Source: Dudresnaya verticillata
Taxonomy: Eukaryota
Direction: 5' to 3'
DNA: 36,001 bases
Assembly: GCA_977862235.1 (NCBI GenBank)
Contig: OZ374559.1
Coordinates: forward strand, 3,100,001-3,136,001
Shown here: positions 743 to 36,001 of the stretch, one piece after another
How positions within the stretch are numbered: position 1 is the first letter of the stretch
Layout of the letters: each line of letters opens with the position of its first letter
Program-made: the position numbers and the translations under genes
Notes under the pieces: generated by a model
The model's database searches: none
Told to the model about the DNA's origin: nothing
What the model saw: only the letters and a program-made list of their open reading frames with translations

Positions 743-1330
743 GGCCGTTCCGTCCTCTGAAGCACCCGCATTGCTCCGAGGCCAAACTCCGCCTCATCGC
801 GTACTCCATCACACTCGTCCTGCCACTTCTTCACCGTTCGCCTCCTGTCGCAGACTTGAAACCAAGGAAATCACGAAAACAATAGATCCGCCATCCATGC
901 CGTTTCAGCAGATGCCCTAATGTACGTATACACCGCTTGTTGTACCACAGGCTCTTTACGAGTCTATAGCAACCATAACTGCATTGCTGTATGGTAGACG
1001 TTTCTACCGCTTTGCTCAGGAACGGTGACCCACGCACTTTTGCCAAGACCGTGAGAGGCGGCCGATTAATACCCCCATCTTTTTCTTCGAATAGCCCCGT
1101 CGCCTACGATCTCAAGCGTTCAACAACAGCCTTGTGTTCTGCAAATTGGAAAACGACAGCTCCTGTTTCCTTCCTATCCCAGCAGCCCTTCTTCACCTCT
1201 TTAGACGACCTCTAGAAAAGTCATTGAGCTCAAGTTTGATGAGAATTGACGAGGGTGAAATAGACACTGGGGCTTCAGAGCTACGTTATACGAGGATATG
1301 TGCCAGCTACTGCTGTACAGGATTTTGGGT
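743..1330 (-). pseudogene. Decayed minus-strand ORF of unknown function (other copies ~12272-12850, ~19963-20545, partial 14535-14719)
   Basis: The minus frame reads as a long stop-interrupted peptide (..SSEAPVSI..IEFELGDFSRGRL..LTVLAKVRG.PFLSKAVETSTI..). The overlapping plus ORFs look like antisense shadows. No family recognised. Confidence 0.3.
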
Positions 1331-1333
1331 TTA

Positions 1334-2583
1334 CGAGAACACCAACCCGGAAGGACGGTTCGTGCTGAACCTCAGTGACATGCTGACGGCTCTAGAGGTA
1401 ACCCCAGAGCGGTTGTTGAAGATTGTAGAGTTTCTTTCGAAGCTCCAGAATGAAAAGCGTCTGTTTGCACTAGTATTCGAAGACCCTAGCGGGGATGTGA
1501 TATCGGACGAGATGGTCTCGTACATGCGGGCGGTGTGCGGGATTATGGATGCGTGCAGCTGGAATGACGGGAAGCTGCTGGCGCACATCCACGAGAAGTG
1601 CGAGTTGCAGGCCACAAACACGCTAGAGTGTTTGGCAGCAGGGTGCGACGGGATGTGGAGCTGCCTGTGCGTGGAGGGTGCGGCGATCGGGCACGCGTGC
1701 TCGACGATGGTGTTGATGAACTTTGTATGGCTGGGGAATAAGAAGGTGCTGTCCAAATACCGGTGCCAGGAGTTTCGGAAGGCAGCGATCGAGGTTACGC
1801 GGCCGACGACACTGAAGGACCCGCACCCCAGCAGTGCTCGTACGGAGATCGGGCTCTGGGCCTTGTGTTTGAATCGAGCTCGATGGCGGGGCCGGGTTCA
1901 ACATGGCAGAGTTTTTCGGGAAGCGCGAGCGCGAGACGAACCGGACGACGACGCTGGAGTCACCAAACATGGTCATGAACAGGCTCAAGTACTTGTTTGG
2001 TGGTGACGTTCAGTTTACGAAGGATGTTGGAACTTTATGGTAGGGTTCGAAGGCAATGGCGCAGAAGATGCTGGCGCAGATGCTAGTGGACCTGAACGTG
2101 GATCGGAAGGAGCGACAAATGAGGAGGAGTACCAGAGCGCGATGGGACTGGTGGTGTTTTTCGACCTGTGCGGGGGCGGATGACGGGGATGATGAGCGAA
2201 GCGATTGCTCGCGTGCAGGTGCAGGACGCTCTCCACCAGCGGGTGACTGTGGATGTCCGGCAGATGTGGGACTTTTGCGACTCGAACGAGGCGCGGAATC
2301 AGGACGGGGCGCTTGACTTTGAGTCATTCTACCACGGTTTTCTCGCGCCGTACTTTGGGTGCTACCCGTGCACGGACACCAATGTGAACAACCAAGCAGG
2401 CGCTGGCCGAGATAGACATGGACAAGGATGGGGTGGTGGACTGGGAGGAGCTTCTTGTGTACGTCAAATGGGCTCTTGCACAATACCTCGAGACGAGCGA
2501 CGTGGACACGGCGATTGAGATCGGGTTGTAGAAGGGGTTGGTCTCGGGGATGAGGGACGTTAAAGTGGATGACCCGGAGATAC
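1334..2583 (+). pseudogene. 5'-truncated, frameshifted DRE-TIM metallolyase (HMGL/IPM-synthase-like) + EF-hand gene, copy A
   Basis: AHIHEKCELQATNTLECLAAGCDGMWSCLCVEGAAIGHA aligns with the HxHND.G.A.AN.L.A..AG....G.GE..GN motif of DRE-TIM enzymes. Downstream EIDMDKDGVVDWEE is an EF-hand loop. Several frameshifts, small insertions and a TAG at 2529. Confidence 0.6.
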
Positions 2584-2641
2584 ACGCTGCATTTTACCAA
2601 AGTGTCCAGCTCTATTATCCCTTAATGCCACAACTTGTGAT

Positions 2642-3140
2642 TTCCAATGCATCCCATAGCAGGTTGACAACGGATCTCTTTTCCGCCCCTGCGTGGCTGA
2701 TCAATATATCGTACGGCGTTACTGAGTCCTGTAGTTCAAAAGCGTAGTGGCCTGATCCCTGAGATACTCACTCAAGAATATGCGGCACCAGTTGTCCATA
2801 CTTCCGCATTTCCCTTCGGCCTCATCGCGTGCCTGGCATTCTTCAGTCGACACCCATGCCCGAGGTATTGACTGTAACACGCTTTTGGAGCGGCCGCGAC
2901 CTCGTTGGATGTTCGAAGGACAATCGGTAACTAGAAAATGATTCCGAGCTGCGCTGCTTCCGTGCGGAGGTCTTTTCATAACATCTTGCAGAGCTTTCAG
3001 ATATTGTTGACCCACCTTCGTCGCTGAGACGGCAACAATCGCACCTGATCGTCCACACAATCCATCAAGGGCCATAATTATGGTTGGATCTGGGAACACG
3101 TCCTTGTCACTAGAGAACCAGGCAAGTCTGGCAGAATGGC
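2642..3140 (-). pseudogene. Internally deleted relic of the Roc-COR-TIR gene (COR pieces to start of TIR)
   Basis: FSSDK|DVFPDPTII|..RPPHGSSAARNHFLVTDCP..ELQDSVTPYDI matches 7876-8992, with deletions of about 8868-8954 and about 8313-8840. Confidence 0.9.
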
Positions 3141-3379
3141 GCTTAGAATAGTAAAGGGGCATGGACACATCGGAACGGAAGTCTACTGTGTGTTTCTTCC
3201 AGCAGGTCGGTCAAGAATTATTCTACGGGAGCAACTAAGTGCTGCTACCGCACAGGACAGAAGGACAAAACCGGTATATTACATACTGTGGCATTTGTAG
3301 CTAATGCTGGCATTCGTGCTGTATTACTCCAATGGCGTACGTAGCTATCAATTCATCAAGTTACAAAACAACACAAAAA

Positions 3380-4185
3380 CCGGGCTCTAGGGCAATGGCT
3401 GCAAGCAATAACATTGCAAATTTTTGTTGCACCAATACGCTCCCCTTCGGCAATCTATATTGCTATATAGCCGCCATCATGCCCCAGTAACATCTGCAGA
3501 ATATGCTTACGTCGTGCAATAAGTTTGCAATAGACTTAGATAGTGCGAAGGAAGCATGGGGATCCATGTTAACGTTTGTGTAATGCGATGTCAAAACTGT
3601 TCATTCATTTTGAGGAATATAATAGCTTCAAAAACTTGGTGGTCATCGCCTTGCGATTGTCAGTTAGCACGTGGTCCGCAATGCTCCTGAGCCGGTCAAA
3701 CTCGGCAACGGATCTAAGAATAAAGTTGCAGTTGATAAAAGGATCTAGTTTCCAGGGTACCTTTCGCTTCTTGGCTAAACGCTGAATGATCGATGACTTG
3801 TAAATTATAAGTCATGGTGCATCATCGACGACGATGATACTGTTGGCGAGAAAGCAGACCTGGCAACTTGTTAGTGATAAAGTAGCAATGATTTGGTACT
3901 ATGTAATTTACAGCATGGGGCTAGAAAACGCTATATTCTCGGGATCAACTCTAGAGATACCGCTCCCCCGCAAACCCGAACATATGGTTATATATACTGC
4001 TTTTAGCAACAGGGCTTCTAATATTGCTACCTAACTTAACCCAATAGGTATTACAATATACATTGTCACAGCCATAAGAATTGCAATTTGCTATCATATC
4101 AGCAACTCAATATGCCATTGCTATTGTATATTGCAATATGTTGCTACTGCTATTAATTGCACGACAGCCCTGGTCACCAGCCCTG
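3380..4185 (-). mobile_element. Non-autonomous hAT-family DNA transposon relic with transposase C-terminal dimerisation-domain fragment (~3590-3794)
   Basis: Minus strand reads FINCNFILRSVAEFDRLRSIADHVLTDNRKAMT/frameshift/QVFEAIIFLKMNEQF*, resembling the hAT C-terminal ..S.A.VERL.S....LTD.R..M....E...FLK.N...W motif. Imperfect termini tagggc..tgcaa..aata / cagggc..tgcaa..aata, with many GCAA/TTGC subterminal motifs. No TSD found. Confidence 0.65.
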
Positions 4186-4373
4186 ACGCGACGCTTCTGC
4201 AACTTTCTGCGCTTCTTTTCCTCTTCTTCCCCTCTTTTTGCCCTTCTTTTCTGTCCTTTCTGTCCGTTTTCTGCAACCCATCCGACGTTATTAACCTTTT
4301 ATCCTGTCCTGTAAGACAGCCATGGCAGGGATCAAACAGATACCTACCTTTTTGTCACCCTGTCATGTGCTCA

Positions 4374-5465
4374 TTATGACGGCGCCAGAAAACTATTACA
4401 CCGGCACTTTAATCACTCAACCCTGTTCGTATTCGAAGCAACTGTGAACAATGTCGTGGCAGAGCTGTGCGACTCTCATGCATGCGATTTTAGACAAGTC
4501 TCCGAAGGGAGGTCCGTCGAACATCGTCGGTATATCTGCCCGGTCTAACAACATCTCGAACACAAATTGGAATTGGCTTCGGTGCTGAAATGGACCGCGA
4601 CCAGAGAATAGCTTTATCATCGTGTCTAGACTCCTTCGTGAAGGAAACCATGGGCGAATATATTATGTACCCATTGCGCCGATACTCCTGAAAGTTTGGA
4701 GAGAGGAAACACATGCTTGAGAACAAACAAATTGTTGAAAATATTTGTCAAGACTTGTTCACAAACTTTATCCGGACAAGACTGGCGGAGACGAAACAAA
4801 AAACAGAGCCTCACTCTTCAGATCTCTTGTACTCGATCATAGTCATCAGCAAGGGAGACATGACGTTGGACACCTCCCTGGTCGTCGAATTTGCTCTCTC
4901 CAGATACGTTTCAACCAACCAGGCCTTATCGTAGGCTGTTTACGAGACTTGCAGAAACTCTAATGTTGAATACTTGACAGGGACTGACGTTTCTACCCGC
5001 TTTAGGGACCGGCTGTTTAACCGCCCTTTATCTAGACGGAAAGTTTGAGAGCCTCCGTATCTGAACAGGGTATGTAACTGCAACAATCACGCAGCCCGCA
5101 AGACCGGTAAAATGACGCAGTGGCGGAACCAAGATCCCAAAGGGGGCATTGGTGATGAGTCTTCAAAGCTGGGCACACCTGGACCCCAAAATATGGCGCG
5201 GTCCGTTGGGGTTTGATCCGGAAGGGTGGGTCTACAGAACTTCTCGTAGAGAGGGTGACAAAGTCCGACCTGGAACTTTTGTTCCGTTTTGTAGTAGGTC
5301 TCGTGCTTGCGCCGGTAGGTTTCTTGCCAAGCACGACTAAGCTCTAATCCCCGCCGAATTGCATCGCAGTTTTATTTTCATGCTAGCTTCCGAGAAGAGC
5401 GAAGGAGTGGGAGTGAAGGCTTTTGTCGAGGTTGCAAAATCACCCTCTGTGAAGGGAGGGGGATT
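4374..5465 (+). pseudogene. Cytochrome P450 pseudogene, copy 1
   Basis: ExxR (GAA AGT TTG AGA = ESLR, ~5039), PERF-like FDPEGW and heme motif FCSRSRACAG (degenerate FxxGxRxCxG). Multiple stops and frameshifts. Confidence 0.8.
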
Positions 5466-7416: not shown

Positions 7417-10400
7417 TTAACTTGCAAACTCGCGAGAGAACTTTTCTGCTGCTCTTGTTGCAAACTGAGTATCGGTCTCTCCACGGACATCGTTCCGAAC
7501 ACCGATATATCCTGTCACTTTCGCAAGTGTCTCCATTACCTCCGTCACTGGAACCTTCTTCTGCCGGTCGTGGTCGAAAAAGTGATTATCTTCAAATACA
7601 CTCCGAAATCGTTCGTCATACGGAAGCTGCTTGTCCTTGCAGTCTTCCACCTGGAGTTGGTAGAAAAGCGGGAATAGTACAGGTGACTGTGGTCCCTGCT
7701 TTCGCTCGAGAAATTCTGACAGTTCCAACATCGGCCACTTGCGAGCCACAAACGACGGAGAAAGAATGAAAGCGGCAGCCTTACTGCCGCGAATTGCCGC
7801 TCGAATTTGCTCTTCGTTTGTACGTTCCGAAACCTTCAAACTCTCTTCATCCAAAAAACATCGCAATCCCATTGCTTCCAATGCATTCCGTAGCGGGTAG
7901 GCAACAGATATCTTTTCCGGGCCTGCGTGGCTAATAAAGACATCATACGGAGTTACTGAGTCTTGTAGTTCAAAATGATCGTGGCTTGATCCGTCAGACA
8001 CACCCTCAAGAATATGTAACTTCAGTTCTCCATAGTTCCACAGTTGATTGCAATAGCATTTTCCTTCTGCCTCATCGAGTGCCTGACATTCTTCAGTCGA
8101 AACCCATGTCTGAGGTATTGACAACAACACACTTTTAGAGCCACCGCAACCCCCCTGGATGCTCGAAGGGCAATCAGTAACTAGAAAATGATTCCGAGCT
8201 GCGTTGCTTCCGTGCGGAGGTCTTGTCAAAAAATCTTCCATAGCTTTCAAACATTCTTGAGCCACCTTCATTGCTGAGACGGCATTGCACCTGATCGTCC
8301 ACACAATCCATCTTTTCTTAGGAACGAAGCAAACAACAACGCGGCAAGTCCCCTTCAGAGAAAGAATTACAGCATCTTGGCGAAGTTCCGGTGGCTTTGT
8401 TCGCTCTCCTCCGATAGTGCGATGAAGGAATGCAACAAAGTAGCCCTCCAAGCCAGGGGGAATGGCATCGTCAAAGATGGTTCTCAAAACAATTTCGCAC
8501 TCTCCTTCTTTCGTAGGGCACTGGAATCCCTCCCAACCTTTGGGAAGCAACGACGGAATCCCGACTAGCTCCTTCCGCTCATCACCCTCCGTCTCTGTAG
8601 AGTGCAAACGCATTAGAATGCCAAACCGGCACAGAATGTCAAGCATCACATCTCGAACAGGAGGTAGGTATTTACACCACAATTCATCCAGTCCCTTTCG
8701 TGGGATCAACCCGTTCTCGTAACTTTCTGCTTCATGCTGTCCTAGAGTTTGCAAACTCCTTTCAAACTCTTTCGCTTCTTCTTCACCCAGTCTTTCTCGC
8801 ATAAACTCAGCCGGGCCCGTGACCTGTCGAATAAAGTCCAGAATAACTGTTGGATCTGGGAACACGTACCATCCCTCGGCCGTCTGAACTTCGACGATAT
8901 GCCCTTGTTGGCCCTGGAATTGGACGCATTTCTCAACGTCTGCTTCTCTCTCCTCCTTGTCACTAGAGAATCCGGGAAGTCTGGCAGCATGGCTATGGAC
9001 TTCTCCCATTGCCAAAAAGACTTCTTGGCTTTCAGTGGCGTCTGACAAAATGGCTTCCCTGAGGGCAGCCCACCGAACTGGAACCTCTTCCCTTCCGTCA
9101 AGAATGTCTTCACTCGCTTCCTTGATAAACTTCTCTAGTTCCACAACGCCTGACCCGGCACGGTCTTGTTCAGCACTGCTGTTCTTGTTCTCGATGGCAA
9201 CCCACCGACACTTGCATTTGTCGACATCACCCTTCTCCCGTACCCAGTCATCGTAGACAGCCCTTCCGAGATGCTTTCGCAGTTTTTGTCGCAGCTGCTG
9301 AAACAAGCCTTCAGGGCTTTCAACTTCTGCCTTCCTGGTTCCCACCAGGATCACCCAAACATTTTTCGGGGTTTGCGAAGATGCATGTGCCATTTGCATC
9401 CAGTTGCATAGTTCTAACACTTCGTCCTCTTGGATGACTTCTGACGCAAACCTTTTCAGATCTACCACGAAAACAAAAATGGAAGCGCGGCGGATGAAGA
9501 TTGCGGGAACACTGAGGTACTCTGCCTGACCCCCAAGGTCCCAGCATTGCACCAACGCAGCTCGATTATCCGCCGGAAAGTCGGAACTCATGAGCCCTTG
9601 CCGTGCTGCTTCCCAAATGGGAGACGCTTGGGAGTTGATAGACTGCGAAGCAGCAATACTGGGCGGAGCTGGTGGTTGTTGAGCAGTGGTATGGCTGCTT
9701 GCCAATGTGTCTCCACTCTGGGGAACGGTCCTCTTGGTCGGAGGAGCTCGCTTGAGCCAAGTGGGGAGTTTAAGGTGGAACCTTGCGGTGGATTTTTCAC
9801 TCGGCCGCGATGATGCATCAGTTGCAGTTGGGAGAAACGCCGATCCAGCTCGAAAGGAGCCGGCATCGGATGCACTTGCTGTAGATGACGTTGGTCGTTC
9901 CATTGGCGTGGGTAACACTGGAATACCTGACCGTGACATGAGGGCATGGAAGGCCTCGCTGTTGAAAGCGAGTTGGTCGACAATGTCATCGTCCAACTTG
10001 GGGCCGTCCGGGACGACAAGAGTGCGACTCAGCGACACAAAGTGTGTCGGCTGGTGGGTGGCAACGAAGGGCATGGAGCGCAGGCTCCTTACCGTGCTTG
10101 TCTTGCCGCGTGCCGCACCGCCAAGAACAAGAAGAAAGCACTGCCGTGGCTTTGCTGTGGCGGTCTTGAGGGTGTTTTCAACAAGTGTGCTGGTGTCACC
10201 GATGCGGTTGACAAGGTATTGCGACCGCTCGCTGAAGAATCCAAGCTGAAGAGGCGTTACCTGTTGATGCGCTGCTTGTTGATGCAGTTGGGCTGCTGCG
10301 CGCTCATCACGAGCAACACCGACATCTCCGCGGCCAAGCAATGTGGCGAGCTCATAGAGTGCGGTGCGGGTGCGATGGAGTTCGATTGAGCGTTGGAAGA

Positions 10401-11223
10401 GGCTCTTCGCGCGCGGCGGATCGCGCGCGTCTCCGATATGATTGGACAAAAGCGCTTGGCCCAACTGAACCATCCAAAGTGGGGCCCTCTCGTGACCGCT
10501 GTCGTAGGCGCGTTGGAGCAGTTCGACGCCGCGCGGAACGTCTCGCGGAACATCGATTCCGCCGCTCAGCAGCAAATAGCCCAAATTGGCCATTGCGACG
10601 ACATTTTCGCCCTCCGCGATGGCGCGCTCGAACAGCGCAGCGGCGCGCGGAGCGTCTTTGGCGACGCCGTCGCCGGTTGCGAGGAGAAGGCCCAAATTGA
10701 CCATTGCGTCGACATCTTCGCCCTCCGCGATGGCGCGGTCGTACAGCGCAGCGGCGCGCGGAGCGTCTTTGGCGACGCCGTCGCCGGTTGCGAGGAGAAC
10801 GCCCAAATTGACCATTGCGTCCACATTCGCAAACTCTGCAACGGCTCGTTCGTACAGCGCTGCCGCGCGCTTTGTGTCTTTGACAAAATGGCGCCATCCT
10901 TCAGAGAGATTCCATCCGAGATTGTACAGCGACACCCCGCGCGGATCTCGCGCGTTGGCGCGCTCGACCAGCTCCGCGGCGCGGCGCTCGTCCTTGGGCA
11001 CTCCCGCGGCCCCTTCCTTTAGCAACAGTGCAAGGCCATGCCGCGCTTCGTCATGGTCGCCCTCATCAATCGCTCGCTCGAGCAAGGCGACGGCTCGCAA
11101 AGGCAGAACGGGCCCTCCATCTGATGCGTCCCAAAACGCAAAGGCGAGTGCAACCATGTCGTGGACGTCGGCATTGTCGTCGATAGCTTGGCGAAGGGCA
11201 CGGCGCTGCGGTGTGGCATCCAT
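7417..11223 (-). CDS. Sel1-like repeat - Roc GTPase - COR - TIR protein (ROCO family), 1268 aa, intronless
   Basis: About 8 Sel1 repeats (AMVNLG.LLATGDGVAKD..RAAALY.RA). P-loop GGAARGKT (10099-10122), G3 WDLGGQ (9526-9543), G4 VGTRK. COR motifs VPVRW, FPDPTVILDFIRQV, LDILCRFGIL, IPSLLP, IPPGL. TIR YDVFISHAG..LRCFLDEESL..SKAAAFILSPSF..KWPMLEL..LFPLFY. Confidence 0.92.
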   Translation of the reverse strand: MDATPQRRALRQAIDDNADVHDMVALAFAFWDASDGGPVLPLRAVALLERAIDEGDHDEARHGLALLLKEGAAGVPKDERRAAELVERANARDPRGVSLYNLGWNLSEGWRHFVKDTKRAAALYERAVAEFANVDAMVNLGVLLATGDGVAKDAPRAAALYDRAIAEGEDVDAMVNLGLLLATGDGVAKDAPRAAALFERAIAEGENVVAMANLGYLLLSGGIDVPRDVPRGVELLQRAYDSGHERAPLWMVQLGQALLSNHIGDARDPPRAKSLFQRSIELHRTRTALYELATLLGRGDVGVARDERAAAQLHQQAAHQQVTPLQLGFFSERSQYLVNRIGDTSTLVENTLKTATAKPRQCFLLVLGGAARGKTSTVRSLRSMPFVATHQPTHFVSLSRTLVVPDGPKLDDDIVDQLAFNSEAFHALMSRSGIPVLPTPMERPTSSTASASDAGSFRAGSAFLPTATDASSRPSEKSTARFHLKLPTWLKRAPPTKRTVPQSGDTLASSHTTAQQPPAPPSIAASQSINSQASPIWEAARQGLMSSDFPADNRAALVQCWDLGGQAEYLSVPAIFIRRASIFVFVVDLKRFASEVIQEDEVLELCNWMQMAHASSQTPKNVWVILVGTRKAEVESPEGLFQQLRQKLRKHLGRAVYDDWVREKGDVDKCKCRWVAIENKNSSAEQDRAGSGVVELEKFIKEASEDILDGREEVPVRWAALREAILSDATESQEVFLAMGEVHSHAARLPGFSSDKEEREADVEKCVQFQGQQGHIVEVQTAEGWYVFPDPTVILDFIRQVTGPAEFMRERLGEEEAKEFERSLQTLGQHEAESYENGLIPRKGLDELWCKYLPPVRDVMLDILCRFGILMRLHSTETEGDERKELVGIPSLLPKGWEGFQCPTKEGECEIVLRTIFDDAIPPGLEGYFVAFLHRTIGGERTKPPELRQDAVILSLKGTCRVVVCFVPKKRWIVWTIRCNAVSAMKVAQECLKAMEDFLTRPPHGSNAARNHFLVTDCPSSIQGGCGGSKSVLLSIPQTWVSTEECQALDEAEGKCYCNQLWNYGELKLHILEGVSDGSSHDHFELQDSVTPYDVFISHAGPEKISVAYPLRNALEAMGLRCFLDEESLKVSERTNEEQIRAAIRGSKAAAFILSPSFVARKWPMLELSEFLERKQGPQSPVLFPLFYQLQVEDCKDKQLPYDERFRSVFEDNHFFDHDRQKKVPVTEVMETLAKVTGYIGVRNDVRGETDTQFATRAAEKFSREFAS
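10580..10820 (-). repeat. 111-bp (37-codon) tandem Sel1-repeat units
   Basis: cccaaattg recurs at 10580, 10691 and 10802. The paralogue has it only at 18381 and 18492. Confidence 0.95.
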
Positions 11224-11316
11224 GTCGGCAGGAGCGGGCGGTCGAGCGGGTGGAGACGGTTGGAGATGGGATGGTTGGGGTATGTGTCGGGAGCGGGTGC
11301 ACCAACCGCACGGCTC

Positions 11317-11324
11317 TATTTATG
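11317..11324 (-). promoter_or_regulatory. Possible TATA-like box (CATAAATA) ~94 bp upstream of ROCO ATG; also 19005-19012
   Basis: The only AT-rich run in a GC-rich upstream region, followed on the minus strand by a C-rich leader. Motif and position only. Confidence 0.35.
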
Positions 11325-12102
11325 CAGCGCGGCGCGGTGAAAAGGTAGCCATCCAAACACATCGTGTGGCCTGTCGAAGCTCCACGTTGTAGCACAACGA
11401 CCGTCTTGTTGTCCCCTCCGCAACGCTATTGTTCGGCGTTTGTCCCAACAGGAGAATCACCGGAGGACGGCTCGCTTGGCCCGCCACAACGTTCTGATAA
11501 AAAACGTACGGCCGGTGCCGTCGCCTTATGCGAGCCCTAAGCGCAAGCTACACTTCGGGCCTGTGGCCGCTGGAGCGCATGAATTTGAGGGCCCCTGCAC
11601 GTTGTACATGCGCCGAGAGTCGTGCAATTGTGCCTATTATCTATCGGAGTGCATCCAACAGTAAGAGAGATGGGGGCCTTTATGGTCGGATTCGAAGGGC
11701 ACTAACTAGGTCGCCCCGTCCACTCAAGGACCAAGGACGTACCTGAAGGGCAAGCCGACGGCGATTGATTGCCAGCGCTTGAAAGCGGAGAAGGCGAGAG
11801 AGAGAGATGCAGTTTATTCAGCGAGATGCAAAAAGATATCGCGATATGGCCCAAATAGCAATAGGCCACCAACGGAGTATGCTTGGACTTGCGAGCAAGC
11901 CCTTTGTATTGCTTCAGCAATAGCGTAAGCACGTGATATTTGTGCAGCCCGCCGTTGGTAGGGATGCGCGAGGCGTAGTCGAGAAGAAAAGGCGGCGCAA
12001 GGAAAGTAGGGCCAAGCGATGGCCCGAGTGAATCCTGTACACGCCCCGATGGTCCCGGAACTCGCAACTGCCACAGCCACAAAAGCAACAACAGCACCAC
12101 CA

Positions 12103-12141
12103 CTTTCGCCATTGCGAAGGCAGTCACCGCAATGGCGAAAG
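12103..12141. repeat. Perfect 14-bp inverted repeat with 11-nt loop; second copy 19794-19832
   Basis: ctttcgccattgcg-aaggcagtcac-cgcaatggcgaaag. Confidence 0.9.
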
Positions 12142-12868
12142 CAGTCAACCGCTCTTAGAACAAACTCGGGCCCATTGAATGCTTTTTAAAGTGGCGCAAG
12201 GGAGAGAGCGCAGTACTCCTCCCCAAAGCCAATCTCCGGCCTCGCCCTGGATCTGCTGCGCATCCGAGCCCGGCCGTTCCGTCCTCTGAAGCACCCGCAT
12301 TTCTCGGAGTCCAGACTCCGCCTCATCGCGTAATCCATCGACCTCGTCTTCCACCTTCTTCACCGTTCGCCTCCTGTCGCAGACTTGAAACCAAGAAAAT
12401 CACGAAAACAATAAATCCGCCATCCATGCCGTTTCAGCAGATGCCCTAATGTATACACCGCTTGTTGTACCACGGGCTCTTTACGAGTCTATAGCAACCA
12501 TAACTGCATTGCCGGATGGTAGACGTTTCTACCGCTTTGCTCAGGAACGGTCACCCGCGCACTTTTGCCAAGACCGTGAGAGGCGGCCGATTTATACCCC
12601 CATCTTTTTCTTCGGATAGCCCCGTCGCCTACGATCTCAAGCGTTCAACAAACAGCCTTGTGTTCTGCAGATTAGAAAAGGACAGCTCCGGTTTCCTTCC
12701 TGAGGAACGCGCAGCAGCCCTTCTTCACCTCTGTAAACGACCTCGAGAAAAGTCACCGAGCTCAAATTCGATGCGAATTGACGAGGGTGCAATAGAAACC
12801 GGGGCTTCAGAGCTGCGTTATACGAGCATATGTGCCAGCTACTTCTGGACAGGATGTCTTGAGTTTAC

Positions 12869-14088
12869 GAGAACATCGACCAGAAAGGACGATTGGTGCT
12901 GACCTTCGTGACATGCTGACGGCTCTAGAGGCAACCCCAGAGCGCATGTTGAAGATTATAGAGTTGCTTTTGAAGATTATAGAGTTGCTTTGAAGCTCCC
13001 GAATGAAAAGCGTCTGTTTGCGGTAGTCTTTGTTCAGTATTCGAAGACCCCGGCGGGGACATGGTGCCGGAATAGATGGTCTTGTACACGCGGGCGGTGC
13101 GCGGGATGATGGATGCGTGCGGATGGAAGGACGGGAAACTGCTGGCGCATATCCACGAGAAGTGGGAGTTGCAGACGACAAACACGCTGGAGTGTTTGGC
13201 AGCAGGTTGCGACGGGATGTGGAGCAGACTGTACGTGGAGGGTGTAGCGATGGGCATGCGTACTTGACGGTGGTGTTGATGAACTTGTACGGCTGGGGAA
13301 TAAGAAGGTGCTGTCCCAGTACCGGTACCAGGAGTTTCCGAAGGAAGCGATCAAGGTTACACGGCTGACGACGCTGATGGACCCGCACCCCAAGCAGTGC
13401 GTGTGCAGAGAGCGAGAGCTGGACCTTGTATTTGACTCGGGCTGTATGGCGGGGGTGGTTTCAACATGGCAGAGCTTTTCGGGGAGCGCGAGACGAACCG
13501 GATGACAACGCTAGCGTCGCCGAACATGGTCGTGAACAGGCTCAAGTACTTGTTTGGTGCCGACGCGAATTTTACATAGGGATTGGCGCAGAAGATGCTG
13601 GTGCAGATGCTAGTGGACCTGATTGCCGGACGGAAGTAGGAGTACCAGAGCGCGATGGGACTGACGGTGTTGTTCGGCGGGTGCGGGGGGAAGGTGACGG
13701 GGAAGATGAGCGAGGCAGTTGCTCGCGTGCAGATTCAGAACGCTCACAACCATAAGGCGATTGCGGATGTCCGCAAGGTGGCGTGGGACGTTTGGGAGTC
13801 GAAGCAGGCGCGGAAGCAGGACGGGGCGCAGGACTTTGACTCGTTCTACCTCGGGTTCCTCGCGCCGTACTTTGGGTGCTGCCTTGCAAGGACACCAAGC
13901 GGGTGCTGGGCAGGATAGAAATGGACAAGGACGGGGTGGTGGACTGGGAGGAGTTTCTTTTGTACGTCAAGTGGGCTCTCGCGCAATACCACGAGACGAG
14001 CGACGCGGACACGGCGATTGAGATCGCGTTGCAGAAGGGGTTGACCCCGGGGATGAGGAACGTTAAGGTGGGTAACCCGGGGATACAA
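12869..14088 (+). pseudogene. DRE-TIM + EF-hand pseudogene, copy B (more diverged)
   Basis: LLAHIHEKWELQTTNTLECLAAGCDGMWS and RIEMDKDGVVDWEEFLLYVKWAL. Many frameshifts and a 21-bp tandem duplication at 12949-12990. Confidence 0.6.
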
Positions 14089-15233: not shown

Positions 15234-18200
15234 TTACTTAAGAGCCTCGAACAACATATGTGCAGCTCTCTTGGCGAACTCATTTTCCGATTCTCCTTGA
15301 TCGTTCCGAGCACCAGTATATTTCGTCACCGCTGCAACTGTGTCCATTACCTTCGACTCTTTCCCGAACTCGCGTTCAAAGAAGCGATTCTCTTTAAACT
15401 CTCGCCAAAATCGGTCGTCGAACGGAAGCTGTTTGTCCTTACAATCTCCGTACTCGAGTTTGTAGAACAGCGGGAACAGCACAAGGCGCGGTGATCCTTG
15501 TTTGCGCTTGAGAAATTCTGAAAGCTCCAACAGCGGCCACTTGCGAGAGACAAACGACGATGACAGGATGAAGACGGCAGCTTTGCTGCCCCGGACCGCT
15601 GGCCAGATCCGTTCATCAGTTGTTTGCGTGGAAACCCTCAGACTCTCTTCATCCAGAAAACAACGCAAGCCCTTCTCCATCAACGCACTTCGCAGCGGGT
15701 ATGCAAGCGACTCCTTATCTGGCCCTGCGTGGCTGATAAATACATCGAAAGGTCTTGCAGCTAGTCGCACGTCAACAGGACGCGGACCTGAGCCCGCACT
15801 TGCTCCTTTGAGGATGTGCGGCTTCAATCGCTTGAAAGTCCAAAGCTGCTCGCAAACGCAAGTGCCTTCTGCTGGGTCCAGTGGCTGGCACTGCGTACTT
15901 GTTACCCAACTCCGACGGATACCCAACTGCACGCTACTGGAACTTCCACACCCCCCGCGCAATTCCTTAGGGCAGTCGGTGATCAGATAGTCTTTCCAGC
16001 TTGCATTGGTCCCATGCAGTGGTCCCTTCAAAAAACTTTCCATGCCCCGCAAACACTGGTGCGCAACCTGCACTGCTTCATCGGCATCCGCCCTTATAGT
16101 CCAGTCGATCCATCTCTTTTCTGGAATAAAGCGAACCACGACTCTGCATGTCCCGCAAGGGCCAGGATGACGGCATCTTGACGAAGCTCGGGCGGTTTTG
16201 TCCGCTCTCTTCCAATGGTTCGGTGAAGGTACGCGATCAGTGACCCTGTCAGACTTGGCGGAATGGTATCAACAAACTCTGTTCGTAAACTTATTTCACT
16301 CTCTCCGTCCTTTGTGTCACACGAGAACCCTTCCCAACCCTTTGGCAGCAGTGAAGGTATCCCGATTAGCTCGTTCTGTTCACCGTCCGCTCCTTCCACA
16401 GCCTGAAGGCGCATGAGGATGTCAAATTGACAAAGAATGTCAAGCATGACTTTTCGGACAGCCGATGGGTATTTACACCACAGTACCTCCAGTCCTTCAC
16501 GGGGTATCAACCCATTCCGATAACCGTCTGCTTCATGCTTTCCCAGAGTCTGTAAAGTCCTTTCAAACTCTTTCGCTTCTTCTTCACCCAGTCTTTCTCG
16601 CATAAACTCAGCCGGGCCCGTGACCTGCCGAATAAAGTCCAGAATAACTGTTGGATCTGGGAACACGAACCATCCCTCGCCCGTCTGCACTTCTACGATA
16701 TGGCCCTGCTGACTCTGGAATTGGACGCATTTCTCAACGTCGGCTTCTCTCTCCTCCTTGTCACTAGAGAATCCGGGAAGTCTTGCAGCTTGGCTCTGGA
16801 CTTCTGCCATTGCCAGAAAGACCTTTTGACTTTCAGTGGCGTGTGACCAAATGGCTTCCCTGAGGGCAGCCCATCGAACTGGAACTCGTTCCCTTCCGTC
16901 AAGAATGTCTTCACTCGCTTCCTTGATAAACTTCTCCAGTTCTACAACGCCTGACCCGGCACGGTCTTGTTCAGCACTGCTGTTCTTGTTCTCGATGGCA
17001 ACCCACCGACACTTGCATTTGTCGACATCGCCCTTCTCACATACCCAGTCATTGTAGACAGCCCTTCCAAGATGCTTTCGCAGTTTTTGTCGCAGCTGCT
17101 GAAACAAGTCTTCAGGGCTTTCAACTTCTGCCTTCCTGGTTCCCACCAGGATCACCCAAACGTTTTTCGGGGTTTGCGAAGACGTATGTGCCATTTGCAT
17201 CCAGTTGCATAGTTCCAACACTTCGTCCTCTTGGGTGACTTCTGACGCAAACCTTTTCAGATCTACCACGAAAACAAAAATGGAAGCGCGGCGGATGAAG
17301 ATTGCGGGAACACTGAGGTACTCTGCCTGACCCCCAAGGTCCCAGCATTGCACCAACGCAGCGCGATGGTCCTCAGGAAAAACGTTACTCATGAGCCCTT
17401 GTCGTGCTGCTTCCCAAATGGGAGACGATAGGGAGTTTATAGACTGCGAAGCAGCAATACTGGGCGGAGCTGGTGGTTGTTGAGCAGTGGTATGGCTGCT
17501 TGCCAATGTGTCTCCACTCTGGGGAACGGTCCTCTTGGTCGGAGGAGCTCGCTTGAGCCAAGTGGGGGGTTTAAGGTGCAATCTTGCGGTGGATTTTTCA
17601 CTCGGCCGCGATGATGCATCAGTTGCAGTTGGGGGAAACGCCGATCCAGCTCGAAAGGAGCCGGCATCGGATGCACTTGCTGTAGATGACGTTGGTCGTT
17701 CCGTTGGCGTGGGTACCTCTTGAATACGTGACCGTGAAATGAGGGCATGGAAGGCCTCGCTGTTGAAGGCGAGCTGGTCGACAATGTCATCGTCCAACTT
17801 GGGGCCGTCCGGGACGACAAGAGTGCGACTCAGCGACACAAAGTGTGTCGGCTGGTGGGTGGCAACGAGGGGCATGGAGCGCAGGCTCCTTACCGTGCTT
17901 GTCTTGCCGCGTGCCGCACCGCCGAGAACAAGAAGAAAGCACTGCCGTGGCTTTGCTGTGGCGGTCTTGAGGGTGTTTTCAACAAGTGTGCTAGTGTCAC
18001 CGATGCGGTTAAGAAGGTATTGCAAGCGGCTGCCGAAGAATTCAAGCTCAAGAGGCGTTACCTGTTGATGCGCTGCTTGTTGATGCAGTTGGGCTGCTGC
18101 GGGCTCATCGCGAGCAACACCGACATCTCCGCGGCCAAGCAATGTGGCGAGCTCATAGAGTGCGGCGCGGGAGCGATGGAGTTCGATTGAGCGTTGGAAG

Positions 18201-18911
18201 AGGCTCTTCGCGCGCGGCGGATCGCGCGCGTCTCCGATATGATTGGACAAAAGCGCTTGGCCCAACTGAACCATCCAAAGTGGGGCCCTCTCGTGACCGC
18301 TGTCGTAGGCGCGTTGGAGCAGTTCGACGCCGCGCGGAACGTCTCGCGGAACATCGATTTCGCCGCTCAGCAGCAATTCGCCCAAATTGGCCATTGCGGC
18401 GACATTTTCGCCCTCCGCGATGGCGCGGTCGTACAGCGCAGCGGCTCGCGGAGCGTCTTTGGCGACGCCGTCACCGGTTGCGAGGAGAAAGCCCAAATTG
18501 ACCATTGCGTTGGCATTCGCAAACTCTGCAACGGCTCGTTCGTACAGCGCTGCCGCGCGCTTTGTGTCTTTGACAAAATGGCGCCATCCGATATGAAGAC
18601 GCACTCCGAGATTGAACAGCGACACCCCGCGCGGATCTCGCGCGTTGGCGCGCTCGACCAGCTCCGCGGCGCGGCGCTCGTCCCTGGGCACTCCCGCGCC
18701 ACCTTCCTTCAGCAACTGCAAGGCCATGCCGTGCTTCGTCATGGTCGCCCTCACCAATCGCTCGCTCGAGCAAGGCGACGGCTTGCAAAGGTAGAACAGG
18801 CCCTCCATCTGAAGCGTCCCAGTACGCAAATGCGAGTGCAACCATGTCGTCGACGTCGGCATTGTCGTCGATAGCTTGGCGAAGGGCACGGCGCTGCGGT
18901 GTGGCATCCAT
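15234..18911 (-). pseudogene. Second Sel1-Roc-COR-TIR gene, with two frameshifts and a divergent C-terminal half
   Basis: Same start MDATPQRRAL at 18911. 2-bp deletion at 18716/18717 and 1-bp loss in the C-run at 16152-16154 relative to copy 1. TIR FDVFISHAGPDK..KWPLLEL lies in ORF 15234-16139. Confidence 0.9.
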
Positions 18912-20552
18912 GTCGGCAGGAGCGGGCGGTCAAGCGGGTGGAGACGGTTGGAGATGGGATGGTTGGGGTATGTGTCGGGAGCGGGTGCACCAACCGCACG
19001 GCTCTATTTATGCCGCGCGGCGCGGTGAAAAGGTAGCCATCCAAACACATCGTGTGGCCTGTCGAAGCTCCATGTTGTAGCACAACGACCTTCTTGTTGT
19101 CCCCGCCGCAGCGCTATTGTTCGGCTTTTGTCCCAACAGGAGAATCACCGGAGGACGGCTCACTTGGCCCTCCACAACGTTCTGATAAAAAAACGTACGG
19201 CCGGTGCCGTCGCCTTATGCGAGCCCTAAGCGCAAGCTACACTTCGGGCTTGTGGCCGCTGGAGCGCATGAATTTGAGGGCCCCTGCACGTTGTACATGC
19301 GCCGAGAATCGTGCAATTGTGCCTATTATCTATCGGAGTGCATCCAACAGTAAGAGAGATGGGGGCCTTTATGGTCGGATTCGAAGGGCACTAACTAGGT
19401 CGCCCCGTCCACTCAAGGACCAAGGACGTACCTGAAGTGCAAGCCGACGGCGATTGATCGCCAGCGCTTGAAAGCGGAGAAGGCGAGAGAGAGAGAGATG
19501 CACTTTATTCAGCGCGATGCAAAAGAATATCGCGATATGGCCCAAGTAGCAATAGGCCACCAACGGAGTATGCTTGGACTTGCGAGCAAGCCCTTTGTAT
19601 TGCTTCAGCAATAGCGTAAGCGCGCGATATTTGTGCACCCCGCCGTTCGTAGGGATGCGCGAGGCGTAGTCGAGAAGAAAAGGCGGCGCAAGGAAGGTAG
19701 GGCCAAGCGATGGCCCGAGTGAATCCTGTACACGCCCCGATGGTCCCGGAACTCGCAACTGCCACAGCCACAAAAGCAACAACAGCACCACCACTTTCGC
19801 CATTGCGAAGGCAGTCACCGCAATGGCGAAAGCAGTCAACCGCTCTTAGAACAAACTCGGGCCCATTGAATGCTTTTTAAAGTGGCGCAAGGGAGAGAGT
19901 GCAGTACGCTTCCCCAAAGCCAATCTCCGGCCTCGCCCTGGATCTGCTGCGCATCCCAGCCCGGCCGTTCCGTCCTCTGAAGCACTCGCATTTCTCCGAG
20001 GCCAGACTCCGCCTCATCGCGTAATCCATCGACCTCGTCTTCCACCTTCTTCACCGTTCGCCTCCTGTCGCAGACTTGAAACCAAGAAAATCACGAAAAC
20101 AATAATTCCGCCATCCATGCCGTTTCAGCAGATGCCCAAATGTATACACCGCTTGTTGTACCACGGGCTCTTTACGAGTCTATAGCAACCATAACTGCAT
20201 TGCCGGATGGTAGGCGTTTCTACCGCTTTGCTCAGGAACGGTGACCCACGCACTTTTGCCCAGACCGTGAGAGGCGGCCGATTTATACCCCCATCCTTTT
20301 CTTCGGATAGCCCTGTCGCCTACGATCTCAAGCGTTCAACAAACAGCCTTGTGTTCTGCAGATTAGAAAACGACAGCTCCTGTTTCCTTCCTCTCCCAGC
20401 AGCCCTTCTTCACCTCTTTAGAAGACCTCTAGAAAAGTCATTGAGCTCAAGTTTGATGAGAATTGACGAGGGTGAAATAGACACCGGGGCTTCAGAGCTA
20501 CGTAATAAAAGGATATGTGCCAGCTACTGCTGTACAGGATTTTGGGTTTACT

Positions 20553-21742: not shown

Positions 21743-21802
21743 ACACGCTGCATTTTACCAAAGTGTCCAGCTCTATTATCCCTTAATGCCGCAACTTGTG
21801 AC

Positions 21803-22301
21803 TTCCAACGCATCCCGTAGCGGGTAGGCAACGGATCTCTTTTCCGCCCCTGCGTGGCTGATAAATATATCGTACGGCGTTACTGAGTCCTGTAGTTCAA
21901 AAGCGTAGTGGCCTGATCCCTGAGATACCCACTCAAGAATATGCGGCACCAGTTGTCCATACTTCCGCATTTCCCTTCGGCCTCATCGCGTGCCTGACAT
22001 TCTTCAGTCAACACCCATGCCCGAGGTATTGACTGTAACACGCTTTTGGAGCGGCCGCGACCACGTTGGATGTTCGAAGGACAATCGGTAACTAGAAAAT
22101 GATTCCGAGCTGCGCTGCTTCCGTGCGGAGGTCTTTTCAAAACATCTTGCAGAGCTTTCAGATATTGTTGACCCACCTTCGTCGCTGAGACGGCAACAAT
22201 CGCACCTGATCGTCCACACAATCCATCAAAGGCCATAATTATGGTTGGATCTGGGAACACGTCCTTGTCACTAGAGAATCAGGCAAGTCTGGCAGAATGG
22301 C
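21803..22301 (-). pseudogene. Internally deleted Roc-COR-TIR relic, second copy
   Basis: Same deletion junctions as 2642-3140; reads YDIFISHAGAEKRSVAYPLRDALE. Confidence 0.9.
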
Positions 22302-22540
22302 GCTTAGAATAGTAAAGGGGCATCGACACATCGGAACGGAAGTCTACTGTGTGTTTCTTCCAGCAGGTCGGTCAAGAATTATTCTACGGGAGCAACTAAG
22401 TGCTGCTACCGCACAGGACAGAAGGACAAAACCGGTATATTACATACTGTGGCATTTGTAGCTAATGCTGGCATTCGTGCTGTATTACTCCAATGGCGTA
22501 CGTAGCTATCAATTCATCAAGTTACAAAACAACACAAAAA

Positions 22541-23341
22541 CCGGGCTCTAGGGCAATGGCTGCAAGCAATAACATTGCAAATTTTTGTTGCACCAATACG
22601 CTCCCCTTCGGCAATCTATATTGCTATATAGCCGCCATCATGCCCCAGTAACATCTGCAGAATATGCTTACGTCGTGCAATAAGTTTGCAATAGACTTAG
22701 ATAGTGCGAAGGAAGCATGGGGATCCATGTTAACGTTTGTGTAATGCGATGTCAAAACTGTTCATTCATTTTGAGGAATGTAATAGCTTCAAAAACTTGG
22801 TGGTCATCGCCTTGCGATTGTCGGTTATCACGTGCTCCGCAATGCTCCTGAGCCGGTCAACCTCGGTAACGGATCCAAGAATAAAGTTGCAGTTGATAAA
22901 GGCATCTAGTTTCCAGGGTACCTTTCGCTTCTTGGCTAAATGCTGAATGATCGATGACTTGTAAATTATAAATCATGGTGCATCATCGACGACGATGCTC
23001 CTGTTGGCGAGAAAGCAGACCTGGCAACTTGTTAGTGATAAAGTAGCAATGATTTGGTACGATGCAATTTACAGCATGGGGCTAGAAAACGCTATATTCT
23101 CGGGATCAAACTCTACAGATGCCGCTCCCCGCAAAACCGAACATATGCTTATCGTATACTGCATTTAGCAGCAGGCCTTCTAAATTACTACTTAACCCAA
23201 TAGGTATTACAATATACATTGTCACTGCCATAAGAATTGCAATTTGTTATCATATCAGCAACTCAATATGCCATTGCTATTGTATATTGCAATATATTGC
23301 TACTGCTATTAATTGCACGACAGCCCTGGTCACCAGCCCTG
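22541..23341 (-). mobile_element. hAT relic, second copy (duplicated with its flanks)
   Basis: Minus strand FILGSVTEVDRLRSIAEHVITDNRKAMT/../FEAITFLKMNEQF. Same termini as 3380-4185. Confidence 0.65.
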
Positions 23342-23526
23342 ACGCGACGCTTCTGCAACTTTCTGCGCTTCTTTTCCTCTTCTTGCCCTCTTTCTACCCT
23401 TCTTTTCTGTCCTTTCTGTCCGTTTTCTGCAGCCCATCCGACGGTATTAACCTTTTATCCTGTCCTGCAAGACAGCCATGGCAGGGATCAAACAGATAGA
23501 TACTTTTCTGTCACTTCATGTGCTCA

Positions 23527-34148: not shown

Positions 34149-34202
34149 CTTGCAGGTCCGCGGCTTCCAGAACCAAAGCCTCTCGATCGATAAAGTAATT
34201 AC

Positions 34203-34242
34203 TGTGGCAAACTCCGGTTCTTGAGCTGTCGGACCCTGGTAA
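34203..34242 (-). repeat. 40-bp remnant (inner end) of the 5' LTR
   Basis: tgtggcaaactccggttcttgagctgtcggaccctggtaa is identical to 28877-28916 and is followed immediately by telomere repeats. Confidence 0.93.
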
Positions 34243-36001
34243 GGGGTTTTAGGGGTTTTAGGGGTTTAGGGGTTTTAGGGGTTTAGGGTTTTAGGGGTTT
34301 TAGGGGTTTTAGGGGTTTTAGGGGTTTAGGGGTTATAGGGGTTTAGGGGTTTAGGGGTTTAGGGGTTTAGGGGTTTAGGGCTTTAGGGGTTTAGGGTTTA
34401 GGTTTAGGGTTTTAGGGTTTAGGGGTTTAGGGGTTTAGGGGTTTTAGGGGTTTAGGGGTTTAGGGGTTTAGGGGTTTAGGGGTTTTAGGGGTTTAGGGGT
34501 TTAGGGGTTTTTAGGGGTTTAGGGGTTTAGGGGTTTAGGGGTTTAGGGGTTTTAGGGGTTTTAGGGGTTTAGGGGTTTTAGGGGTTTAGGGGTTTTAGGG
34601 GTTTAGGGGTTTTAGGGGTTTTAGGGGTTTAGGGGTTTAGGGGTTTAGGGTTTAGGGGTTTTAGGGGTTTAGGGGTTTAGGGGTTTAGGGGTTTAGGGGT
34701 TTAGGGGTTTAGGGGTTTTAGGGGTTTAGGGGTTTTAGGGGTTTAGGGGTTTAGGGGTTTTAGGGGTTTAGGGGTTTAGGGGTTTAGGGGTTTAGGGGTT
34801 TAGGGGTTTAGGGGTTTTAGGGGTTTAGGGTTTAGGGGTTTTAGGGGTTTAGGGGTTTAGGGTTTAGGGGTTTAGGGGTTTAGGGGTTTAGGGGTTTAGG
34901 GGTTTAGGGGTTTAGGGGTTTAGGGGTTTTAGGGGTTTAGGGGTTTAGGGGTTTAGGGGTTTTAGGGGTTTTAGGGGTTTTTAGGGGTTTAGGGGTTTAG
35001 GGGTTTTAGGGGTTTAGGGGTTTAGGGGTTTAGGGGTTTAGGGGTTTAGGGGTTTAGGGGTTTAGGGGTTTAGGGGTTTAGGGGTTTAGGGGTTTAGGGG
35101 TTTAGGGGTTTAGGGGTTTAGGGGTTTAGGGGTTTAGGGGTTTAGGGGTTTAGGGGTTTAGGGGTTTAGGGGTTTAGGGGTTTAGGGGTTTAGGGGTTTA
35201 GGGGTTTAGGGGTTTAGGGGTTTTAGGGGTTTAGGGGTTTAGGGGTTTAGGGGTTTAGGGGTTTAGGGGTTTAGGGGTTTAGGGGTTTAGGGGTTTAGGG
35301 GTTTAGGGGTTTAGGGGTTTAGGGGTTTAGGGGTTTAGGGGTTTAGGGGTTTAGGGGTTTAGGGGTTTAGGGGTTTAGGGGTTTTAGGGGTTTAGGGGTT
35401 TAGGGGTTTAGGGGTTTAGGGGTTTAGGGGTTTAGGGGTTTAGGGGTTTAGGGGTTTAGGGGTTTAGGGGTTTAGGGGTTTAGGGGTTTAGGGGTTTAGG
35501 GGTTTAGGGGTTTAGGGGTTTAGGGGTTTAGGGGTTTAGGGGTTTAGGGGTTTAGGGGTTTAGGGGTTTAGGGGTTTAGGGGTTTAGGGGTTTAGGGGTT
35601 TAGGGGTTTAGGGGTTTAGGGGTTTAGGGGTTTAGGGGTTTAGGGGTTTAGGGGTTTAGGGGTTTAGGGGTTTAGGGGTTTAGGGGTTTAGGGGTTTAGG
35701 GGTTTAGGGGTTTAGGGGTTTAGGGGTTTAGGGGTTTAGGGGTTTTTAGGGGTTTAGGGGTTTAGGGGTTTAGGGGTTTAGGGGTTTAGGGGTTTAGGGG
35801 TTTAGGGGTTTAGGGGTTTAGGGGTTTTAGGGGTTTAGGGGTTTAGGGGTTTTAGGGGTTTAGGGGTTTAGGGGTTTAGGGGTTTAGGGGTTTAGGGGTT
35901 TAGGGGTTTAGGGGTTTAGGGGTTTAGGGGTTTAGGGGTTTAGGGGTTTTAGGGGTTTAGGGGTTTAGGGGTTTAGGGGTTTAGGGGTTTAGGGGTTTAG
36001 G
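34243..36001 (+). repeat. Telomere, (TTTAGGGG)n, G-rich strand running to the window end
   Basis: 1759 bp of T3AG4. Variants (T4AG4, T3AG3, TTATAGGGG at 34333, CTTTAGGGG at 34381) are concentrated proximally; the distal part is nearly homogeneous. Confidence 0.97.

What the first reader, a model, noticed from the sequence alone, without database searches (positions are those of the whole stretch)
10900..10914. Hypervariable codon patches in the Sel1 helices inside otherwise identical DNA
Seen: 10900-10914 vs 18590-18604 differ at 10 of 15 nt (WNLSE vs VRLHI), while ~70 bp on one side are identical and ~70 bp on the other differ once (Y/F, also non-synonymous). The same position after NLG changes in other repeats (V/L to F; TAT Tyr to GAA Glu), as do residues before AM (VD/AN, VV/VA). 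A second patch lies at 10205-10250 (QLGFFSERSQYLV vs ELEFFGSRLQYLL). Known: helix-A residues line the ligand groove of TPR/Sel1 solenoids. Inference: strong diversifying selection, or targeted micro-conversion, at a ligand-binding surface. This is the best evidence here that the genes are variable receptors.
Basis: partly seen in the sequence, partly recalled or inferred. Interest (0 to 1): 0.8.

Follow-up and report, generated by a model that had tools for sequence, protein, structure and literature searches.

The report
Variable binding groove in algal receptor
Two near-identical genes next to a chromosome end, likely from a red seaweed, differ mainly at the amino acids predicted to line their binding groove, which is the pattern already known from candidate immune receptors of fungi and brown algae and likely reflects selection for new binding specificities.

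Summary
10900-10914 and 18590-18604 differ at 10 of 15 nt, with 1 difference in 120 flanking nt; chance gave this in 0 of 20,000 permutations. The patch is helix-A positions 9-13 of Sel1 repeat 3 in two subtelomeric, intronless Sel1-Roc-COR-TIR paralogues. Gene A is intact (1268 aa); gene B has two frameshifts. Their 5' 4 kb is ~4% divergent, their 3' halves 32%. Amino-acid changes fall at groove positions (11 of 48 codons vs 9 of 216). Groove dN/dS is 2.6 (p=0.014), but 1.7 and not significant without the patch. Point mutation at the fitted rates never gives 10/15, so the patch is likely a block: a short conversion tract or an island that escaped homogenisation. No donor lies in the window. 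The second patch is in the linker, not a Sel1 helix. The pattern is general: 46 of 47 fetched proteins with near-identical Sel1 repeats show it. The architecture is already reported in Chondrus, and groove hypervariability in fungal NLRs and brown-algal ROCOs. Verdict: a real new member of a known kind; receptor function is inferred, not shown.

The parts
7417..11223 (-). Gene A: intact, intronless Sel1(x8)-Roc-COR-TIR ORF, 1268 aa
   Evidence: COR assignment from Atlas features and relatives with COR-A hits
15234..18911 (-). Gene B: paralogue with 7 repeats, two frameshifts, no in-frame stops when read against A
10900..10914 (-). Main patch in A: WNLSE, helix-A positions 9-13 of Sel1 repeat 3
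18590..18604 (-). Main patch in B: VRLHI, end of the same predicted helix
10264..11172 (-). Sel1 solenoid of A (codons 18-320); amino-acid differences to B concentrated at positions 0, 2, 5, 9, 12, 13
10627..10737 (-). Extra 111-bp Sel1 repeat in A, absent from B (repeat-number difference)
10210..10248 (-). Second patch, in the linker between the last Sel1 repeat and Roc (B equivalent 18011-18049)
10099..10122 (-). Roc P-loop GGAARGKT
9562..9585 (-). 6/15 patch inside Roc, just before the WDLGGQ motif (control: patches are not confined to Sel1)
7624..7947 (-). TIR domain of A; WPMLEL aligns with WTNYEL of the NADase AbTIR, so the Glu recalled as catalytic is kept
8750..12700 (.). Homogenised block shared with ~16550-20390: ~4% divergent, sharp edge near 8750; beyond it 32% divergent
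18716..18717 (-). 2-bp deletion in B, at codon 66 = position 9 of repeat 2
16157..16158 (-). 1-bp deletion in B, in COR, cutting off the TIR frame
2642..3140 (-). COR relic without Sel1 part, closer to A than to B
21802..22304 (-). Second COR relic, 97% identical to the first
34242..36001 (+). TTTAGGGG-type tandem array at the window end, read as a telomere: the genes are subtelomeric (15-23 kb away)

Best explanation
The patch is a run of five changed codons in a Sel1 repeat of two tandem Sel1-Roc-COR-TIR paralogues whose amino-acid differences cluster at positions predicted to line the binding groove, likely because gene conversion homogenises the genes while diversifying selection likely keeps the groove different. 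Shown: the domain order, the ~4-kb near-identical block with a sharp edge, the repeat-number difference, the positional and non-synonymous bias. Inferred: (1) A and B are old paralogues (3' halves 32% apart) whose 5' parts were overwritten by conversion or unequal crossover; (2) the 15-nt patch is one block, either a short tract copied from a diverged third copy or allele elsewhere in the genome, or old divergence preserved while both flanks were converted; (3) the solenoid binds a variable ligand, probably from a pathogen or other non-self source, and signals through Roc-COR dimerisation to the TIR domain, as a cytoplasmic NLR-like sensor. Step 3 rests on analogy only.
For: Groove set fixed beforehand from PMC1261162 (positions 2, 5, 9, 12, 13, 33, 34). 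The same numbering (Asn = 6) gives peptide contacts at 0, 2, 5, 6, 9, 13 in the Sel1 crystal structure c5321, itself a sequence and fold hit. Amino-acid changes: 11 of 48 groove codons vs 9 of 216 others, p=1.2e-4; without the patch 8 of 45 vs 8 of 214, p=0.002. Random 7-position sets reach 11 in 0.3% of draws, 2.3% if drawn from helix A only. Codon model: omega 2.65 vs 0.36, p=0.014 against omega=1; repeats 3-8 only (chosen after seeing the data) 6.6, and 4.6 without the patch, p=0.011. Block origin: 0 of 20,000 simulations at fitted rates reach 10 changes in 5 codons; the patch includes a synonymous change and a non-groove codon; 10/15 windows do occur at the depth of the 3' halves (9 windows, 0.7%); upstream non-coding DNA is unclustered (40 substitutions in 1477 nt, max 3/15). 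Independent recurrence: 21 Chondrus Sel1 repeats have 21 different groove combinations, 40% groove vs 89% other identity, and four-gamete conflicts in 30 of 36 position pairs, including 9 vs 12. A Chondrus Sel1-Roc-TIR pair differs at 10 of 32 groove vs 22 of 147 other sites, and 67 of 920 downstream (p=0.03); a stand-alone Sel1 pair shows no bias, 3 of 84 vs 19 of 360.
Against: Only two copies, so no site model. Over all eight repeats omega without the patch is 1.7, not different from 1 (p=0.25). No donor for either 15-mer in the window (only 3-mismatch hits), and the genome is not held. B is frameshifted twice, so it may no longer be selected. Two other Sel1-Roc cluster pairs are identical at the groove (0 of 91, 0 of 49), and a third Sel1 pair shows only a weak bias (9 of 56 vs 24 of 233, p=0.16). 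Side-chain orientation was taken from the literature register, not measured on my models (coordinates not returned). No ligand, expression or phenotype data.
Confidence: 0.62

Rival explanations
1. Stepwise point mutation under very strong selection on these five codons, with no block transfer.
For: P(10 or more changes) reaches 0.10 at omega 20 (t=0.06) or 0.17 at omega 50 (t=0.03). 9 of the 10 changes are non-synonymous.
Against: Needs omega of 20-50 on five adjacent codons, two of them not groove positions, against 2.6-6.6 fitted for the groove class.
Confidence: 0.13
2. Relaxed constraint: groove residues are free to vary (omega about 1), B is a decaying pseudogene, and the patch is a neutral conversion scar.
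For: Omega without the patch is not significantly above 1 over all repeats; B has two frameshifts; lesser patches also lie in the linker and Roc; groove variability is generic in Sel1/TPR arrays.
Against: Non-groove codons show purifying selection (omega 0.3-0.4) and B has no in-frame stops, so decay is recent at most. Repeats 3-8 give omega 4.6 without the patch (post hoc). A neutral tract need not start at position 9 and end at 13.
Confidence: 0.14
3. A programmed or somatic diversifier: silent subtelomeric copies such as B donate short tracts to the groove codons of A, or a retroelement-like mutator targets them.
For: Subtelomeric position, a frameshifted neighbour, gene relics, a 2-bp deletion exactly at position 9, sub-repeat shuffling in Chondrus.
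Against: No donor or template repeat in the window; the reverse transcriptases present are of LINE and Gypsy type; only 6 of the 10 patch differences involve an A on the coding strand (by inspection); two cluster pairs of related genes are invariant at the groove.
Confidence: 0.07
4. Base-calling or assembly error.
For: B's two small deletions could be consensus errors; no reads could be checked.
Against: Differences respect the reading frame (no stops, synonymous bias outside the groove, non-synonymous inside); both patches fit the helix; neighbouring ORFs of 1268, 1019 and 629 aa are intact; non-coding flank shows no clustering.
Confidence: 0.04

Closest known systems
Chondrus crispus TPR(Sel1)-ROCO-TIR proteins (e.g. 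XP_005713456.1, XP_005712860.1)
   Same: Same domain order; 29% identity over 97% of the Roc-COR-TIR part; architecture named in PMC11378527, which counts five ROCOs in Chondrus (passages).
   Different: I found no paper analysing selection or conversion in them. The tandem subtelomeric pair with a converted 5' half is specific to this window.
Fungal NLRs with high-internal-conservation WD40/TPR/ANK repeats (Podospora HET-E/D/R, Pa_2_10340)
   Same: Near-identical repeats, a few hypervariable positions on the concave face, repeat-number change, inter-gene exchange (PMC4986451, PMC13449251 passages).
   Different: Those have NACHT/NB-ARC ATPases, an N-terminal effector and C-terminal repeats; here N-terminal Sel1, Roc-COR GTPase, C-terminal TIR. 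Only repeats 4-5 of A are near-identical to each other; the identity here is mainly between paralogues.
Ectocarpus LRR-ROCO candidate immune receptors
   Same: Repeat-Roc-COR genes, clustered, positive selection on the concave face (PMC3341825 passages).
   Different: LRR sensor diversified by one-repeat-per-exon shuffling; the gene here is intronless, has Sel1 repeats and a TIR.
Generic TPR/Sel1 ligand-groove hypervariability
   Same: Identical positions (PMC1261162; PMC3851747); seen in 46 of 47 near-identical Sel1 arrays among 258 fetched proteins. Positive selection on Sel1 genes is reported in Helicobacter (PMC1941758 passages).
   Different: Those are family-wide statistics or secreted bacterial proteins, not a nucleotide-level contrast between two converted eukaryotic paralogues.

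Membership tests
Sel1/TPR-ROCO-TIR (Chondrus type) | N-terminal Sel1 repeats | tested here: met
   Pfam Sel1 5e-33; solenoid model, top fold hits are Sel1 proteins
Sel1/TPR-ROCO-TIR (Chondrus type) | Roc GTPase with P-loop and DxxG motif | tested here: met
   Pfam Roc above cut-off; GGAARGKT and WDLGGQ; G4 reads VGTRK as in Chondrus
Sel1/TPR-ROCO-TIR (Chondrus type) | COR domain after Roc | tested here: inconclusive
   No direct Pfam COR hit; Atlas top hits are Roc+COR-A clusters, 0.96; colinear relatives have sub-threshold COR-A hits
Sel1/TPR-ROCO-TIR (Chondrus type) | C-terminal TIR | tested here: met
   Pfam TIR_2 1e-14; aligns to AbTIR with the Glu kept
Variable-groove repeat receptors (fungal HiC NLR / Ectocarpus ROCO kind) | Variable residues at concave-face positions | tested here: met
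   11 of 48 vs 9 of 216; register
Variable-groove repeat receptors (fungal HiC NLR / Ectocarpus ROCO kind) | dN/dS above 1 at those sites | tested here: inconclusive
   p=0.014 with the patch, 0.25 without; post hoc subset p=0.011; two sequences only
Variable-groove repeat receptors (fungal HiC NLR / Ectocarpus ROCO kind) | Repeat-number change and sequence exchange between copies | tested here: met
   111-bp repeat indel and 4-kb block with sharp edge
Variable-groove repeat receptors (fungal HiC NLR / Ectocarpus ROCO kind) | High internal conservation (over 85% over 100 aa, PMC4986451) | tested here: not met
   Only 2.2-2.6 copies of the 111-bp unit are alike, under 100 aa
Variable-groove repeat receptors (fungal HiC NLR / Ectocarpus ROCO kind) | Non-self recognition or cell-death function | not testable with these tools
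   No functional data
NLR proper (STAND ATPase) | NB-ARC or NACHT domain | tested here: not met
   Roc instead; works like an NLR at most
Diversity-generating retroelement | Template repeat and dedicated RT nearby | tested here: not met
   No template for the patch in the window; RTs are LINE and Gypsy; rest of genome not held

The most novel reading that the evidence does not exclude
A red alga diversifies a subtelomeric Roco-TIR immune receptor by copying 10-30-nt tracts from silent paralogues into the groove codons of the active gene, in the manner of antigenic-variation cassettes, possibly within one individual.
Probability: 0.07. Interest if true: 0.85.

Novelty: new member of a known kind. 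Interest (0 to 1): 0.4.

Why it matters
No pathogen receptor has, as far as I recall, been functionally shown in red algae; Sel1 proteins are listed only as 'potential pathogen receptors' (PMC12115072 table). This pair gives nucleotide-level evidence that Sel1-Roc-TIR genes change their predicted binding surface, and names the residues (positions 2, 5, 9, 12, 13) to swap in a test. It would extend the conversion-plus-selection regime of fungal NLRs and brown-algal ROCOs to a third lineage and another scaffold. That is useful to seaweed-disease and Roco specialists but not a surprise in kind.

Tried and rejected
Whole genome: not held, so no genome-wide donor search. Sequencing runs: none was listed; no reads laid. 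Metagenome scan: 171 pattern matches, none a relative. Three protein searches and one representative search found nothing closer than 50% identity, so no same-species alleles. Donor search in the window: only 3-mismatch hits; no Sel1 relic outside A and B. Micro-inversion: the two patches are not reverse complements of each other (by inspection). DGR-like mutagenesis: rejected, see rivals. False tandem duplication of two haplotypes: unlikely, the 3' halves are 32% apart and the units are not end-to-end copies. Earlier scan findings: none. Telomere-motif search gave 2 listings, neither read, no help on taxonomy. Bacterial promoter scan: 0 sites, uninformative for a eukaryote. The Chondrus genome paper is not held; it and its supplement may discuss these genes. 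In one search only proteins with 3 or more repeat pairs of 70% identity were counted (47 of 258). In one search the repeat-7 anchor was set by eye (7 of 8 anchors reproduced by a profile), and TPR 33/34 were mapped to positions -1/0.

Full report
Setting. The window ends in a 216-copy TTTAGGGG-type array from 34242, read as a telomere. Upstream lie a chromodomain Gypsy element and LINE fragments, then a tandem cluster. Gene A (7417-11223, minus) is one ORF of 1268 aa with Sel1 repeats, Roc and TIR. Gene B (15234-18911) is its paralogue with a 2-bp deletion at 18717, a 1-bp deletion at 16158 and one 111-bp repeat fewer. The only named full-architecture relatives are Chondrus crispus proteins, so a red alga is likely (inference; no genome held). 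At least five further Sel1-Roc or Sel1-Roc-TIR proteins came from unnamed assemblies.

Observation. The patch is as described: 10 of 15 nt, WNLSE vs VRLHI, 1 difference in 120 flanking nt. A and B share a block from ~12700 to ~8750 with 155 substitutions in 3828 columns; no permutation of 20,000 gave 10 in 15. Below 8750 divergence jumps to 32%. This sharp edge points to conversion or unequal crossover that put a recent copy of the promoter-Sel1-Roc half on an old COR-TIR half (inference).

Position of the changes. I took the groove set from Magliery and Regan (PMC1261162, passages: positions 2, 5, 9, 12, 13, 33, 34; Asn at 6). The c5321 Sel1 structure paper (PMC3851747, passages) puts helix 1 on the concave face. 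Its peptide contacts D304, T306, A309, N310, A313, R317 fall at positions 0, 2, 5, 6, 9, 13 when counted from its helix start at 305. With NLG as 6-7-8, the patch is positions 9-13 of repeat 3 and ends helix A in both models. Amino-acid changes hit 11 of 48 groove codons and 9 of 216 others (p=1.2e-4); without the patch 8 of 45 vs 8 of 214 (p=0.002). Groove codons carry 15.5 non-synonymous and 0.5 synonymous changes, the others 10 and 13. Position 9 differs in repeats 3, 4 and 6, between repeats 4 and 5 of A, and carries B's 2-bp deletion in repeat 2.

Strength of selection. A two-class codon model gives omega 2.65 (groove) vs 0.36, p=0.014 against neutrality. Without the five patch codons it gives 1.70 vs 0.32: still different from the rest (p=0.001) but not from 1 (p=0.25). 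Synonymous divergence is lower in repeats 3-8, and there omega is 6.6, or 4.6 without the patch (p=0.011), but I chose that region after seeing the data. Diversifying selection is therefore likely, not proven.

Origin of the patch. At the fitted rates, 0 of 20,000 simulations gave 10 changes in five codons; omega of 20-50 on all five would be needed. The patch includes a synonymous change and a non-groove codon. Windows of 10/15 occur at the depth of the 3' halves (9 windows). Non-coding upstream DNA shows no clustering, although Roc and the neighbouring duplicated gene show mild clustering (max 6 and 7 of 15). The simplest reading is a block event: a tract from a diverged copy, or an old island left by conversion of both flanks. 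The window holds no donor, so the two cannot be separated here.

Replication and controls. Twenty-one near-identical Sel1 repeats of two Chondrus proteins (no Roc hit in the one scanned) vary most at positions 9, 12, 2 and 5. All 21 groove combinations differ, and 30 of 36 position pairs show four-gamete conflicts, including 9 vs 12, three codons apart, which means recurrent change or very fine shuffling. A Chondrus Sel1-Roc-TIR cluster pair is more divergent in the groove (10 of 32) than elsewhere in the repeats (22 of 147) or downstream (67 of 920); a stand-alone Sel1 pair shows no bias, and a third pair a weak one. Against rapid ongoing variation: two other Sel1-Roc pairs are identical at the groove (0 of 91, 0 of 49); these may be near-clonal samples. 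Against specialness: of 258 fetched proteins, 47 have near-identical Sel1 repeats and 46 of them vary more at groove positions, bacterial ones included.

Likely function. The solenoid would bind a ligand in its groove, Roc-COR would act as the switch, and the TIR would signal; its WPMLEL motif aligns with that of the NADase AbTIR (catalytic role of this Glu recalled). All of this is by analogy.

Comparison. The architecture is named for Chondrus in PMC11378527 (passages). Concave-face selection with repeat exchange is described for fungal NLRs (PMC4986451, PMC13449251; passages) and Ectocarpus LRR-ROCOs (PMC3341825; passages). Red-algal Sel1 proteins appear as potential pathogen receptors in PMC12115072 (passages). 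PMC6928737, PMC7145615 and PMC1941758 were seen as passages and add context only. Searches listed no study of selection in red-algal Sel1-Roc-TIR genes, judged from titles, abstract starts and the passages above; the library lacks most subscription papers and the Chondrus genome paper.

Verdict. It is a new member of a known kind. Interest 0.4.

Noticed in passing
window 18716-18717: B's 2-bp deletion falls exactly on repeat position 9, the most variable position; it may be a real slip or a consensus error where reads of different copies disagree.
   Followed up: partly
window ~8750 / ~16550: Sharp switch from 4% to 32% divergence inside COR: the two genes share sensor and GTPase halves but carry old, different COR-TIR halves (omega 0.22), i.e. 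an effector-end swap.
   Followed up: partly
window 743-5463, 12272-14087, 19963-24620: Three copies of a divergently oriented gene with HMGL-like features (Atlas 0.87, a lead only) and EF-hands alternate with the Roco genes; frames appear interrupted.
   Followed up: partly
window 2642-3140 and 21802-22304: Internally deleted COR relics, 97% identical to each other and ~81% to gene A.
   Followed up: partly
window 29371-34265: Chromodomain Gypsy element with intact gag-like (629 aa) and pol (1019 aa) frames whose 5' end abuts the telomeric array at 34242.
   Followed up: no
window 34242-36001: TTTAGGGG-type telomeric repeat with T3/T4 and G3/G4 variants; only 2 papers in the library hold this word with 'telomere'.
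   Followed up: partly
window 24222-24644, 25722-27560, 28387-29043: Cytochrome P450 fragment and two RT-containing LINE-like fragments.
   Followed up: no
proteins P0002, P0004 (Chondrus), P0008: Sel1 proteins with up to 15 near-identical repeats, each with its own groove combination from a small alphabet; a better system than this window for a selection and recombination test.
   Followed up: partly
proteins P0147, P0258: The same Roc-TIR core occurs with ankyrin repeats or a second TIR in place of Sel1 repeats, suggesting sensor-domain swapping in this family.
   Followed up: no
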